A stretch of 63,254 nt of DNA, the filler included, from Octopus bimaculoides (lineage: Eukaryota), in NCBI RefSeq assembly GCF_001194135.2. It is 6 parts of 6 records of this genome, joined end to end, with 100 filler letters (N's around TTAATTAATTAA, not from the genome) between each part and the next. Parts side by side here need not be neighbours in the genome. Positions count along the whole stretch, not along the records: positions 16,643 to 19,071 come from NC_068982.1; positions 19,172 to 41,489 come from NC_068985.1; positions 41,590 to 60,519 come from NC_068984.1; positions 60,620 to 63,254 come from NW_026346934.1; 2 more parts are not named here. The stretch is one strand, 5' to 3'. Under the pieces are notes generated by a model. It was not told the origin of the DNA, made no database searches, and was given only the letters and a program-made list of their open reading frames with translations. This document shows, in pieces, positions 18,958 to 63,190 of this stretch (position 1 is its first letter; every line of letters starts with the position of its first letter). The position numbers and the translations under genes are program-made.

Positions 18958-19000
18958 GCCTCTGACGAGAACCCAATAATGTCCGAAAATCGATTAAGGT
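18958..19000 (+). ncRNA. Minimal type I hammerhead ribozyme motif (canonical core)
   Basis: GCCT-CTGACGA-GAAC(ccaataat)GTCC-GAA-AATCGATT-A-AGGT: 4-bp stem I, stem II with one mismatch, palindromic stem III. Confidence 0.75.
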
Positions 19001-19703
19001 TGTTCATCTTTTTTTCAATCTACGGAGAAATGGCTAAATTTGCTCTCATTATAAATATACGATATATATATNNNNNNNNNNNNNNNNNNNNNNNNNNNNN
19101 NNNNNNNNNNNNNNNTTAATTAATTAANNNNNNNNNNNNNNNNNNNNNNNNNNNNNNNNNNNNNNNNNNNNTGTGTTGTGAATTTATGGAAGGGAATCCG
19201 ATACAACTCAACAATTTTGTTGAAACTAGAGAAGAGATGTTAAAATACGTGTGTTGCATTCCACCAAGCCCAATATAAACTGGACAACCATATCCGGGTT
19301 GGGTGCAGGTATTATAAAGATAGAATCACAAATGAGGTTTTAAGTTTACTACAACTGTTTCTGTAACATTTTATTTGTTGGTTCATAGATTACGTCAGAG
19401 TAAAAGTCCACCATCGTCGGTTAGCATTTTAAACTTGAACAAAATAAAACCTTGGTGATGACCTATTTTCGACAACTAATGTTATGAATAAGTGAAATTC
19501 AAAAATAGCACAAACGAATTCTTAGAGAAAGTAGAGACGTATACGGATGTTCGAGCAGCAAAGAGCTCAACACAATCCCATTTTCAAGCAGTTTCAAGCA
19601 GTTATTTTTAATTTGTTTATTGCAGTGATCAGGTAATTCAAAGCGTTTCTGGGAAGATATTTCATTGGTTCTGTTAATAAAACCGCAAACTATACATAGA
19701 TAT

Positions 19704-19845
19704 GGTGAAGGTGCCTGGTTAGGTGTGTTAGACTTACGATCCTGAGATTGCAGTTTTGATTCCCAGACCGGCTGCGCGTTGTGTTCTTGAGCAAAACACT
19801 TCACTCCCGTTGCTCCACTCCACTCAGTTGTAAACGGATAACACA
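19704..19845 (+). mobile_element. tRNA-head SINE fragment
   Basis: GGTTAGGTGTGTTAGACT...TTTGATTCCCAGACC head, then GTGTTCTTGAGCAAAACACTTCAC. Confidence 0.6.
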
Positions 19846-19973
19846 CCGATAATAACCATTCCCAGTTCTGTACTTTATTTGTGTATGCATTTTCAATAAT
19901 ACATGGCGAATAATATTTATATTTTTAATACAGTACGGTAAAAAAAAATGTAATCTAAATTTACGAATATATT

Positions 19974-20432
19974 TTACGAATATATTTTAATGGAGTCATA
20001 ACTTCTTCGCTCCTTAAATCTCATGAACCATCCTTGACTTGCTTTGAACTCTACATCTTTCTCATCTGAATACTTTTTCTTCAGGTCCTCAAACAAAGAC
20101 AACAGTTTCTCTTGAATGATTTCTTGACTAATAGTAGCACGCTGACGATTCAACCTAACAATCCAAAGAGAAAGAAGACTTTCCATTTCTTCAAAGATTT
20201 TGCCTCTTTTCTTATCGATGACAGTGTTCTTCACCGTTGGGGCTTCGGATCTGATATGTGCTAAAATCTTGTCCTTATTATGTGCAGTCGTCGATACAGT
20301 TGTCCAACTCATTCCAAAACATCGTGCAATTACTACCATTTTTTTCACCTTTTTCATGGCTTTTTATCACAGCCAGTTTATCTTCCAGCGTTATAGCATG
20401 ATGCTTAGCACTTTCACTGTGAATTTTGTCAT
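19974..20432 (-). mobile_element. Tigger/pogo transposase N-terminal remnant (psq HTH + CENP-B HTH)
   Basis: KHHAITLEDKLAVIKSHEKGEK / MVVIARCFGMSWTTVSTT...LLSLWI...ISQEIIQEK...FKASQGWFMRFKER with a frameshift; truncated before the DDE domain. Confidence 0.9.
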
Positions 20433-20784
20433 GAGGGCAAAAAGTAAAGTCACAAATGAATGAGAATGAGAAAGTAGCCGATAAACAGACGTAAACAAAT
20501 CTGAATTCAAAACAATCGCGAGAATCACGAGAGATAACGACGCCTAGCGATAGATATTGGAACTACAGTGCAATATGAGCTCCGAAAGACCGATAAATAA
20601 CACAACACAGCTGATTTCCTGATTTCGTTCACGAAGCTACACTACTTTATGGTGTGTCTTAACATTTACTGTGCGTATTTAATATGATTTTATATGCTTT
20701 TATGGTAATTATTCAGTATGCTTACAATAAAAAAGTAAATAAGATTTAAGGGGGAGATAAGTAGTAAAAGAAGCAACTGACTTT

Positions 20785-21398
20785 TTACACAGCATAAACA
20801 CTGGCGATCGCCGCCACAAGGGGAACAAATGTGTTCGTTTGTCCGTGGAATTAAGCCTTTCCACATTTTGTGTGAGGACATGTTGATTATGAGGATCAAC
20901 AAAATCTTGTTCGTGTATAATCACCTCGTGTGTGCAGGCATCATCAGTCAGGATACCAATGTTATTACACGCTCGCCAGCCATCACTGACTATGTGAAAC
21001 CCATCTTTGTATCAGCGCAGTTAAGGTTTGTTCAGTGCGGTCAGGTATATCGACCAAAAAACCCTTTTTAGAGCCTCTCCCTCTCCCTCTCCCCCCCTCT
21101 CTCTCTATGCCACCGAATACCCAATGGCCAGGGCACCACTTACCTCAGTAATACTTACGATGAAAGAACTTGCTTTCGTCAATTTCTACAACTAACGTCT
21201 GTCCATTAGCATCCAAACCACCAATTTCTATCTGATTCTTTTGGAGCCAAACATCACGTACTTCCCAAAAGAAATCACACCATTCCACGACTGTAGTTCA
21301 ACTATTGACGGAAGGCTCGTGCATAATATCCTCTTGAGACATATCTCGTGCCCAATAACAAACAATTAAAATGATATTGAGCAAGGAAATATGACTTC
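20785..21398 (-). mobile_element. Merlin (IS1595/ISXO2-like) transposase remnant
   Basis: IEIGGLDANGQTLVVEIDESKFFHRKYY*GKWCPGHWVFGGIER...GFLVDIPDRTEQTLTALIQRWV / HIVSDGWRAC...HEVIIHEQDFVDPHNQHVLTQNVERL; all three D-D-E motifs visible, with stops and a frameshift. Confidence 0.92.
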
Positions 21399-60519: not shown

Positions 60520-61069
60520 NNNNNNNNNNNNNNNNNNNNNNNNNNNNNNNNNNNNNNNNNNNNTTAATTAATTAANNNNNNNNNNNNNNNNNNNNNNNNN
60601 NNNNNNNNNNNNNNNNNNNTATATATTTATTTATACATACATACATATATTTATATATATATATAAATAAATTTATATTTATATATATATAAATAAATAT
60701 ATATTTATATATAAATATATATATATATAAATATATATATAAATAAATATATATATATTTATTTATTTGTATATGTATTAAAAAAAAAAATGTTCGTCAA
60801 TATTACTTTTTACATGCCACTGGCACAGGTGCCAGTTACGTGACGCAAGGATCGGTGATCACTACAATTTCACTTGGCTTGGCAGGTATAATTTATCTTT
60901 TACTTGTATTTTAGTCATGCTGGGGCACCACCTTGAAGAATTTTCAGTTGACTGATTCGGCCCCAGTACTTTCTTTTTTAGAGCCTGCTGCTTAATTTCA
61001 TTGGTCTCCTGAACCAATTAGTTGCAGGGACATAAACACAGCAACAATGGTTAAAACATCTATATATAT

Positions 61070-61255
61070 ATCGGGCTCTATGGTTAGAGGCTTGCTTACC
61101 AACCACATGGTTCTGCGTTCAGTCCCACTGCGTGGCACCTTGGGCAATAGTATTCTACTATAGCCTCAAGCTGACCAAAGTCTTGTAAGTGGATTTGGTA
61201 GACAGAAACTGAAAGAATCCCATTATAGTTTATGGGTGTGTGTCTGTGTTTGTCT
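61070..61255 (+). mobile_element. Family B SINE 5' half
   Basis: GGTTAGAGGCTTGCTTACCAACCACATGGTTCTGCGTTCAGTCCCACTGCGTGGCACCTTGGGC. Confidence 0.8.
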
Positions 61256-62544
61256 TCCAAGTGAAAAAAAAATCGGGCGATCTTTCGTTTTCAGAACAGT
61301 TTACATCACTTCTTCAAGCACGAGTTTTCTGGAGAGGGCTCTTTGCTGAATTCTCCATCGGGAATTAAGGTGGCATTGCTTTCAATACGCACAAACAAAC
61401 ACATACGCCTTTGTAATTAACTCTTTAGCGATATCAAATCTTATGAATTTTAGAGTTTCAAAAATTTGTCCTTCTTTTGAATAATTTCATTTGTGAGTTG
61501 CCTCCCTTGTAAGGTATGCTATTCAACACGACAATAAATTATTGTGTGTAAATTGATGCCAAGCTAATGCTAGAAATAGATGCCAAATCACGTAACCATG
61601 AAGAATATGTTCTCAAGGAAAAAAAAATATGTATGTAATATAATCTGGACCACTGCGGCCATACTGTAGCACCGCCTTTAGTCGAGCAAATCGACCTGAG
61701 GACTTACTCTTCGAATGCCTAGTACTCATTCTGTAGGTCTCTTTATTCATTTGTCTTGCTCATTTTTACATTCTGGTGTCTTGCTGAAATTTTTTTCTTG
61801 AGAACATATTCTTCGTGGTTAGGTGATTTGGCATCTATTTCTAGCATATAGGAGTCCACTTTTGCTGGTCATTCCTCTTAATTTTGTATGTATGTATATA
61901 TATATATATATATATATATATATATNNNNNNNNNNNNNNNNNNNNNNNNNNNNNNNNNNNNNNNNNNNNNNNNNNNNNNNNNNNNNNNNNNNNNNNNNNN
62001 NNNNNNNNNNNNNNNNNNNNNNNNNNNNNNNNNNNNNNNNNNNNNNNNNNNNNNNNNNNNNNNNNNNNNNNNNNNNNNNNNNNNNNNNNNNNNNNNNNNN
62101 NNNNNNNNNNNNNNNNNNNNNNNNNNNNNNNNNNNNNNNNNNNNNNNNNNNNNNNNNNNNNNNNNNNNNNNNNNNNNNNNNNNNNNNNNNNNNNNNNNNN
62201 NNNNNNNNNNNNNNNNNNNNNNNNNNNNNNNNNNNNNNNNNNNNNNNNNNNNNNNNNNNNNNNNNNNNNNNNNNNNNNNNNNNNNNNNNNNNNNNNNNNN
62301 NNNNNNNNNNNNNNNNNNNNNNNNNNNNNNNNNNNNNNNNNNNNNNNNNNNNNNNNNNNNNNNNNNNNNNNNNNNNNNNNNNNNNNNNNNNNNNNNNNNN
62401 NNNNNNNNNNNNNNNNNNNNNNNNNNNNNNNNNNNNNNNNNNNNNNNNNNNNNNNNNNNNNNNNNNNNNNNNNNNNNNNNNNNNNNNNNNNNNNNNNNNN
62501 NNNNNNNNNNNNNNNNNNNNNNNNNATATATATATATGTATGTA

Positions 62545-62745
62545 TATATCTATGTGTGTGTCTGTGTTTGTCCTCCACCACCTCCATCACCACTTGACAA
62601 CCAGTGTTGGTGTGTTTACGTTCCCGTAACTTAGCACTTTGGCAAAAGAGACTGATAGGATCAGTACTAGGATTAAGACATAAGTCCTGGGGTCGATTTG
62701 TTCAACTAAAACCCTTTTTAAGTTGGTGTTCCAGCATGGCCACAA
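62545..62745 (+). mobile_element. Family B SINE 3' half
   Basis: CTTGACAACCAGTGTTGGTGTGTTTACGTTCCCGTAACTTAGC...CCAGCATGGCC. Confidence 0.75.
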
Positions 62746-62999
62746 TGTTGAATCATATGTAGGAACAAATGATATAAACTTGTGTTTCTCATAATTCCTC
62801 CTACTAGTTGCTTGACTATACTATACTGCATGGAGGTAAGCCACATGGGGCTTTAAACATGGAAGTAGCAGTCATGTGTGTATTGCATGCACAAGAAAGG
62901 TGAAATAAACATCAGAGATGCTTTATCCTATACAGAACCAGTAAAAGCTTCTCAGAGGTTTTGCAAGCTCTTCTCCAGAGTCTCCCAGAGAGATTTACC

Positions 63000-63190
63000 T
63001 ATAGTTCTATATTTAAGAGATGAGGAATTATGTACATTATTTACATTTGACAGATATTTGTCCTCATCTTGTTTGTTGTTAACACAACGTTTCGGCTGAT
63101 ATACCCTCCAGCCTTCATCGGGTTTCTTGGGGAAATCTCGAACCTGGGTTCTCATTCCTAAGGTATTTTTCGATGTTGTCGTTTTTGTTA
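63000..63190 (-). mobile_element. Penelope-type pLTR with hammerhead motif (CCGAUGA core)
   Basis: Reverse strand CCGATGA-A-GGCTG(gagggtatat)CAGCC-GAA-ACGT-T-GTGTT at 63081-63126; same family as 23.8-24.1 kb. Confidence 0.8.

What the first reader, a model, noticed from the sequence alone, without database searches (positions are those of the whole stretch)
18958..63126. Window-wide battery of Penelope-type minimal hammerhead ribozymes with shared palindromic stems: possible cis-heterodimer cleavage in one transcript
Seen: more than ten motifs with the layout stem I - CUGANGA - stem II - GAA - palindrome - H - stem I'. Plus strand: 18958, 22549, 23971, 32386, 36878, 42344, 49931. Minus strand: 23854, 25543, 32743, 40750, 41912, 42435, 60221, 63081. 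The palindromes fall into classes: ACAGCTGT, ACGT, AATCGATT, ACCATGGT, AGCT. Established: Penelope-like elements carry minimal type I hammerheads whose palindromic stem III makes them work as dimers. Inference: if one plus-strand host pre-mRNA spans these copies, unrelated copies with the same palindrome (ACAGCTGT at 22583 and 50050; ACGT at 32413 and 36905) could pair in cis and cut the intron co-transcriptionally, giving a distributed ribozyme system.
Basis: partly seen in the sequence, partly recalled or inferred. Interest (0 to 1): 0.75.

Follow-up and report, generated by a model that had tools for sequence, protein, structure and literature searches.

The report
Scattered Penelope-retroelement hammerhead remnants
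The motifs are real but mostly worn copies of the small hammerhead RNA motif already known from the ends of Penelope-type jumping genes; they sit on four different genome pieces, so the proposed one-transcript ribozyme battery is not there, and they likely cut RNA only in their active parent elements.

Summary
Fourteen of the 15 listed sites are recognisable minimal type-I hammerhead motifs or remnants; 60221 is a look-alike. Only 3 pass a strict intact-core descriptor (0.05 in shuffles). The window is a pack: the sites lie on four contigs, and the named pair 22549/49931 is split between C5 and C4, so one transcript cannot hold both. The other pair (32386/36878) is two copies of one family with non-canonical cores. 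Each searched motif belongs to a dispersed repeat family (hundreds of exact copies for three of them). Four families sit downstream of Penelope-like endonuclease or RT-endonuclease frames elsewhere in the genome. Private mutations hit core and flank equally (2.1% vs 2.3%), same-palindrome families are not clustered, and three RNA runs show no reads on unique DNA, no splice joints and no ends at the predicted cuts (weak evidence: cDNA libraries, 6% read). Verdict: ordinary Penelope pLTR hammerhead remnants; cis-heterodimer system not supported. Side result: one family carries a CUGUUGA (A6U) core in 940 exact copies against 46 canonical, across diverged sub-lineages. The scan found such motifs before, in this and other genomes.

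The parts
18954..19004 (+). Family E minimal hammerhead (AATCGATT); core words canonical, stem II damaged; on contig C2
22544..22599 (+). Family B minimal hammerhead (ACAGCTGT), U4C core, 3-bp stem I; on C5; family lies about 600 nt downstream of a GIY-YIG-like frame in 2 of 64 loci
23851..23902 (-). Family C hammerhead (ACGT), canonical core, weak stem II; one half of an inverted pair
23968..24019 (+). Family C hammerhead, palindrome broken (ATGC); inverted partner of 23854
25540..25584 (-). Family D remnant lacking the first core box
32382..32425 (+). Family D hammerhead (ACGT), A6U core shared by most of the family
32739..32788 (-). Family E-related hammerhead, GGA in place of GAA
36874..36917 (+). 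Family D hammerhead, C3U plus A6U, G-U at the base of stem II
40746..40837 (-). Family G hammerhead (ACAGCTGT), canonical core, long weak AU-rich stem II
41917..41973 (-). Family F hammerhead (ACCATGGT), 7-bp stem I, A9U with a deletion at the start of stem II; on C4
42336..42384 (+). Family H hammerhead-like motif, good stem II, 1-bp stem I, family palindrome position reads AGAT
42432..42478 (-). Degenerate D-like remnant
49928..50066 (+). Family A hammerhead (ACAGCTGT), canonical core, 8-bp stem II with an about 90-nt structured loop; on C4; family ends a Penelope-like element about 2.7 kb after its endonuclease frame
60218..60270 (-). Not a hammerhead: no first core box, G at the cleavage position, lies antisense in an open frame at 60189-60518
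63078..63129 (-). Family C hammerhead, U4C, 2-bp stem I; on C52077
16643..16921 (-). RT-region fragment of the Penelope-like lineage that carries family D at its 3' end elsewhere
41490..41589 (.). Pack joint separating C5 (22549, 32386, 36878) from C4 (49931); other joints at 19072-19171 and 60520-60619

Best explanation
The sites are independent, mostly decayed 3'-end (pLTR) stumps of at least four Penelope-like retroelement lineages, lying on four different contigs, whose minimal hammerheads likely cleave only as same-family dimers in tandem transcripts of the active parent elements, not in a host pre-mRNA. Shown: the motifs, their families, their places, their position downstream of endonuclease or RT-endonuclease frames for families A, B, C and D, and neutral decay after insertion. 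Inferred from the literature: dimer cleavage through the palindromic stem III, probably protein-assisted, and 5' truncation plus inverted copies as products of Penelope insertion. Untested: any cleavage.
For: Places. Copy numbers (exact words, both strands about equal, reversed controls 0): A 265, B 132+105, D 940+46. Link to coding frames: C follows RT and endonuclease frames in L197, L198, L161, with an inverted copy 5' of the truncated frame in L198 (RVT_1 E 5e-10); D follows an endonuclease frame in L246, L287, L289, L092 (GIY-YIG E 0.007, below cut-off); A follows an endonuclease-like frame through a shared 3' region in L304 and L298; B in L333 and L324. Inverted pairs: 18 of 64 B loci hold two copies, all inverted (some loci overlap), the arrangement described in PMC8557442. 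Background: 4 strict hits in 344 kb of arbitrary DNA vs 0.6 in shuffles; 13 profile hits for families B-E in the same DNA. Private mutations: core 25/1202, other positions 366/16255, p=0.76.
Against: No coding frame was linked to families E, F, G, H; family E has a fixed far end, unlike a 5'-truncated retrocopy. Pfam did not recognise the A- and C-linked endonuclease frames, so those labels rest on recalled motifs. The window is denser in motifs than background (5.3 vs 1.2 per 100 kb strict; by hand P about 0.03). Counting all differences, cores of A and D are more conserved than flanks, which I read as selection in source lineages, but it is not proof against selection in place.
Confidence: 0.9

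Rival explanations
1. One reading: unrelated copies with the same palindrome pair in cis in one plus-strand pre-mRNA and cut an intron co-transcriptionally, as a distributed ribozyme system.
For: Families A, B and G do share ACAGCTGT, C and D share ACGT. The A+B active-dimer fold is modelled 7.7 kcal/mol above the best dimer fold, no worse than the B homodimer (7.6), with 2 and 3 cross stem-I pairs, so such a pair is not chemically excluded. One same-strand A/B pair lies within 30 kb elsewhere on C4.
Against: 22549 and 49931 are on different contigs of 127 and 148 Mb. A and B are not clustered on C1-C6: 0 same-strand pairs within 5 kb, 1 within 30 kb vs 0.29 expected, P=0.25 (95 A, 94 B exact sites); 0 of 64 B loci hold an A or G copy. 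No reads on unique bins, no splice joints, no end piles at 22591, 32417, 50058 in three runs. No plus-strand gene domain in 150 of 257 frames from 200 kb around the C5 stretch.
Confidence: 0.02
2. Incidental cis cleavage by two copies of the same family: 32386 and 36878, 4.5 kb apart on one strand of C5, would occasionally dimerise if the region is transcribed at low level.
For: Same strand, same scaffold stretch, 4 palindrome pairs and 4+4 stem-I pairs in the modelled dimer. Contigs of run X1 touch scattered unique pieces of the stretch at depth 3-5 (may be DNA).
Against: Both cores are altered (A6U; C3U+A6U); the active dimer is modelled 14.9 kcal/mol above the best fold; depth 0 at 33506-34172 in X4-X6; published minimal hammerheads cleave poorly even as designed dimers (PMC4209133) and the anole one needs its protein (PMC11167929).
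Confidence: 0.04
3. The motif in some lineages (family D) is kept as a structural or protein-binding signal for mobilisation and does not need to cleave.
For: A6U is present in 940 of 986 exact D words, in copies attached to RT and endonuclease frames (L287, L289), and across sub-lineages whose flanks average 65% identity, with canonical copies scattered on the tree (19 rows, 6 changes, shuffled mean 6.0). A natural A6C variant cleaves slowly (PMC3088659, passage). Cleavage-dead mutants did not affect insertion in vitro for an anole element (PMC11167929, passage).
Against: All other core positions are retained, which fits a working variant equally well; rows were chosen by exact motif match, and some flanks may be non-homologous. 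No activity data.
Confidence: 0.3

Closest known systems
Minimal hammerheads (min-HHR) in pLTRs of metazoan Penelope-like elements (Cervera and De la Pena 2014, PMC4209133; read: abstract, results, discussion, part of methods; supplement file 2 searched, file 1 not available)
   Same: Type I layout, palindromic stem III without loop, short stem I, long stem II with an unpaired base after position 9, G10.1-C11.1 in most families, many consensus families, mostly single dispersed copies, opposite-strand pairs 100-700 bp apart, few copies inside full elements.
   Different: Family A has an about 90-nt structured loop II; family D has an A6U core; neither CUGUUGA nor CCGAUGA nor 'octopus' occurs in the searched supplement file.
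Penelope-like element insertion structures (Craig et al. 2021, PMC8557442; passages)
   Same: 5'-truncated copies, inverted copy next to the 5' end, microsatellite targets, hammerhead near the 3' end.
   Different: Nothing in kind; clade names for these families (Poseidon-like C, Neptune-like D, Nematis-like A and B) are my recall of motifs, not tested by a tree.
Poseidon element of the green anole (Frangieh et al. 2024, PMC11167929; passages)
   Same: pLTR hammerhead; no RNA-seq reads ending at the cleavage site there either.
   Different: That hammerhead was tested (protein-assisted, dispensable for insertion in vitro); none here was.
Dimer-cleaving Penelope-associated hammerhead variants (Lunse, Weinberg, Breaker 2016; not held, seen only as a reference and as summarised in PMC6765202 passages)
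   Same: Short palindromic stem III, dimer cleavage, low rates.
   Different: Could not check whether it lists A6U or long loop-II variants.

Membership tests
Penelope pLTR minimal hammerhead | Type I order: stem I, CUGANGA, stem II, GAAA, short or palindromic stem III, UH, stem I' | tested here: met
   Met by family majorities of A (22 of 24 rows) and C (canonical core commonest) and by 3 window copies under the strict descriptor; most window copies are damaged
Penelope pLTR minimal hammerhead | Canonical catalytic core in the family majority | tested here: not met
   Not met for family D (A6U, 940 vs 46) and for about half of B (U4C, 132 vs 105); met for A and C
Penelope pLTR minimal hammerhead | Located downstream of an RT plus GIY-YIG frame on the same strand | tested here: met
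   C (3 loci) and D (4 loci, RT also in 2) clearly; A and B downstream of an endonuclease-like frame only; not shown for E, F, G, H
Penelope pLTR minimal hammerhead | Dispersed truncated copies with inverted or tandem partners | tested here: met
   23854/23971; 18 of 64 B loci inverted; L198; tandem A copy in L012
Penelope pLTR minimal hammerhead | Self-cleavage as a dimer | not testable with these tools
   Only energy models; no read ends in cDNA runs
Host intronic cis-acting ribozyme system | Partners on one contig, one strand, one transcript | tested here: not met
   Named pair on C5 and C4; no spanning reads or joints
Host intronic cis-acting ribozyme system | Purifying selection on cores after insertion | tested here: not met
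   Private mutations 2.1% in core vs 2.3% elsewhere, p=0.76
Non-LTR retrozyme | Non-coding 170-400 nt tandem units with canonical 6-bp stem I hammerheads (recalled; abstract of PMC7229834 seen in listing) | tested here: not met
   Copies are single or inverted, stems I short, and four families trace to coding elements

The most novel reading that the evidence does not exclude
A Penelope-like lineage has spread to thousands of sites, through several diverged sub-lineages, while keeping an otherwise perfect hammerhead with U in place of the conserved A6: either a natural, protein-rescued active A6U ribozyme or a hammerhead fold retained for a non-catalytic step of mobilisation. A second lineage hangs an about 90-nt branched RNA domain in loop II.
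Probability: 0.3. Interest if true: 0.45.

Novelty: new member of a known kind. Interest (0 to 1): 0.2.

Why it matters
As proposed, a distributed heterodimer ribozyme in a host intron would have been striking, but it is not there. What remains is a further genome full of Penelope hammerhead remnants (roughly 20,000 intact-core motifs by extrapolating 4 hits in 344 kb, so very uncertain). The one useful lead is the A6U family: the role of these ribozymes in Penelope mobilisation is an open question in the papers read, and a lineage that amplified with an altered catalytic core gives a direct natural test of whether cleavage is needed.

Tried and rejected
Rfam scan: none of the 150 listed of 174 matches was a hammerhead family; they were microsatellite-driven miRNA models, and the MIR9486 hit at 23866-24003 is the inverted family C pair. 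The broken Penelope-like frame at 44597-46837 has no hammerhead within its 3' flank, and 30 loci of its relatives gave no link to the window's families. All-difference core-versus-flank test set aside because inherited subfamily differences inflate the flanks; replaced by the private-mutation test. Covariation in family A loop II: 0 of 38 predicted pairs change on both sides in 16 copies, too alike to test. My early note that U4C is family-wide in B was wrong (132 vs 105). Run search: no RNA holder listed for 33300-34150. Reads at 49793-50423 come from other copies or alleles (every read over 49958 carries the family base). Lunse et al. not held. Paper searches for A6U or CUGUUGA in hammerheads and for Penelope hammerheads in octopus or cephalopods listed no describing paper; only listings were seen for the hits not named above, and subscription papers are not covered, so this does not show absence from print. 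Search for a heterodimer precedent listed nothing relevant among 15 of 148.
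Full report
Observation. The window is a pack of six stretches. All 15 coordinates were read out. A strict descriptor (canonical core, stem II of 4 or more pairs, perfect palindrome, stem I of 2 or more) finds 3 sites, 23854, 40750 and 49931, against 0.05 in 20 shuffles; allowing one core change and a short stem II finds 5 against 0.35, one of them unlisted and probably chance. 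The others are damaged: weak stem II (18958), broken palindrome (23971), 1-bp stem I (42344), U4C (22549, 63081), A6U (32386), C3U+A6U (36878), GGA (32743), A9U (41912), degenerate (42435), first box missing (25543). 60221 has no core box and a G at the cleavage position and is rejected. Rfam listed no hammerhead among 150 of 174 matches.

Places. Searches of the own genome (2.34 Gb; octopus-like by earlier notes and my recall, no call names it) put 18958 on C2, 22549-40750 on C5, 41912-60221 on C4 and 63081 on C52077. The flagship pair 22549+49931 is therefore on two different chromosome-scale contigs. The second pair, 32386+36878, is on one stretch, but both are copies of one family (90% alike over 68 bases).

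What the motifs are. Every motif searched is a dispersed repeat: exact words occur 265 times for A, 132+105 for B, 940+46 for D, evenly on both strands, with reversed controls at 0. Forty arbitrary 10-kb stretches (344 kb without N) hold 13 profile hits to families B-E and 4 strict hits, three from families not in the window. The window is denser than this background (5.3 vs 1.2 per 100 kb), but as a pack it is not one locus. Family C follows RT and endonuclease frames in L197, L198 and L161, and L198 also has the inverted copy at the truncated 5' end (RVT_1). Family D follows an endonuclease frame in L246, L287, L289 and L092, with the RT region further upstream in L287 and L289 (weak GIY-YIG match); 5 of 20 stretches fetched downstream of that RT region held a D copy. 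Family A lies about 2.7 kb after an endonuclease-like frame, joined by a shared non-coding region (L304, L298). Family B lies about 600 nt after a related frame in 2 of 64 loci. No frame was found for E, F, G or H. This matches the published picture of minimal hammerheads in Penelope pLTRs, mostly single, sometimes in opposite-strand pairs (PMC4209133) and of truncated and inverted insertions (PMC8557442).

Testing the cis-heterodimer idea. (a) Geometry: in the double-hammerhead fold both stem III and stem I form between partners. A+B gives 8 palindrome pairs and 2+3 stem-I pairs, 7.7 kcal/mol above the best fold, as good as the B homodimer, so chemistry does not exclude it; C+D gives 0+1 stem-I pairs; 32386+36878 is 14.9 above. 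(b) Clustering: among 95 A and 94 B exact sites on C1-C6, 0 same-strand pairs within 5 kb and 1 within 30 kb (0.29 expected, P=0.25). (c) Selection: private mutations hit core and other positions equally, 25/1202 vs 366/16255, p=0.76, over six families; counting all differences the A and D cores are more conserved than flanks, as expected if selection acted in the source elements. (d) Transcription: in three raw RNA runs (about 6% of each read, cDNA, apparently unstranded) 96% of reads laid on 21500-41489 fit only partly, unique bins have depth 0, there is no splice joint and no pile of ends at 22591 or 32417; the C4 stretch likewise, with none at 50058. Such libraries can miss nascent intron RNA, so this is weak. 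Pfam on 150 of 257 low-repeat frames from 200 kb around the C5 stretch gave a transposase domain, a small DUF and a COX14-like match, all on the minus strand.

Mechanism. Shown: motif anatomy, families, places, link to coding elements, neutral decay. Inferred: in the parent elements two neighbouring pLTR hammerheads of a tandem transcript pair through the palindrome and cleave slowly (PMC4209133; PMC6765202 passages), possibly helped by the element's protein, as shown for an anole element whose cleavage was dispensable for insertion in vitro and left no read ends in RNA-seq (PMC11167929 passages). The window copies are insertion stumps without a suitable partner.

Side result. Family D has CUGUUGA in 940 exact copies against 46 canonical; A6U copies are attached to RT-endonuclease frames and spread over sub-lineages whose flanks average 65% identity, with canonical copies scattered among them (19 rows, chosen by exact motif match). 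Natural U4C and A6C variants with low activity are described (PMC3088659 passages). Searches for A6U found no describing paper, but the most relevant paper (Lunse et al.) and one supplement could not be read. Family A has an about 90-nt structured loop II (-34 kcal/mol for stem II plus loop; no covariation); long stems II also occur in background families.

Verdict. Observation partly confirmed; family assignment right; the distributed cis-heterodimer system is an artefact of the packed window. Earlier notes of this scan describe the same kind of motif in this and other genomes; they were not used as support. New members of a known kind; interest 0.2.

Noticed in passing
window 44597-46837 (+): Broken Penelope-like RT and GIY-YIG-type frame in many pieces, with a cysteine linker; 6178 candidate relatives of its endonuclease; no hammerhead found after it.
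   Followed up: partly
L220-L224, L190 upstream region: A young hammerhead family not in the window, with a 6-bp stem I, a 10-nt palindrome and copies 98-100% alike, often in inverted or tandem pieces: a candidate for a recently active element.
   Followed up: no
window 17953-19071: The family E repeat has a fixed, G+C-rich end about 1 kb upstream of the hammerhead and variable other end, which looks more like a DNA-transposon-type unit carrying a hammerhead stump than a 5'-truncated retrocopy.
   Followed up: partly
window 32350-32381: The D copy at 32386 starts right after a SINE-like head; RNA reads join 32381 to the SINE-like repeat at 38819, suggesting insertion into that repeat.
   Followed up: no
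L139:344-568 (-), about 10 kb beyond the C5 stretch: COX14-like Pfam match, E 5e-6.
   Followed up: no
window 55566-56159 (+): 198-aa open frame without a clear family (weak CTLH_Armc9, E 0.03), touched by two low-depth contigs of run X7.
   Followed up: partly
window 19977-20363 (-); 46967-47590 (+): Tc5/pogo-type transposase DNA-binding fragment; C2H2 zinc-finger fragment of an expressed repeat.
   Followed up: no
L150, L167, L173, L146, L131, L122: Further minimal hammerhead families with 8-nt palindromes (ACGCGCGT, ACACGTGT, ACGATCGT, ATCCGGAT, ATGATCGT), two with stems II of 80-90 nt.
   Followed up: no
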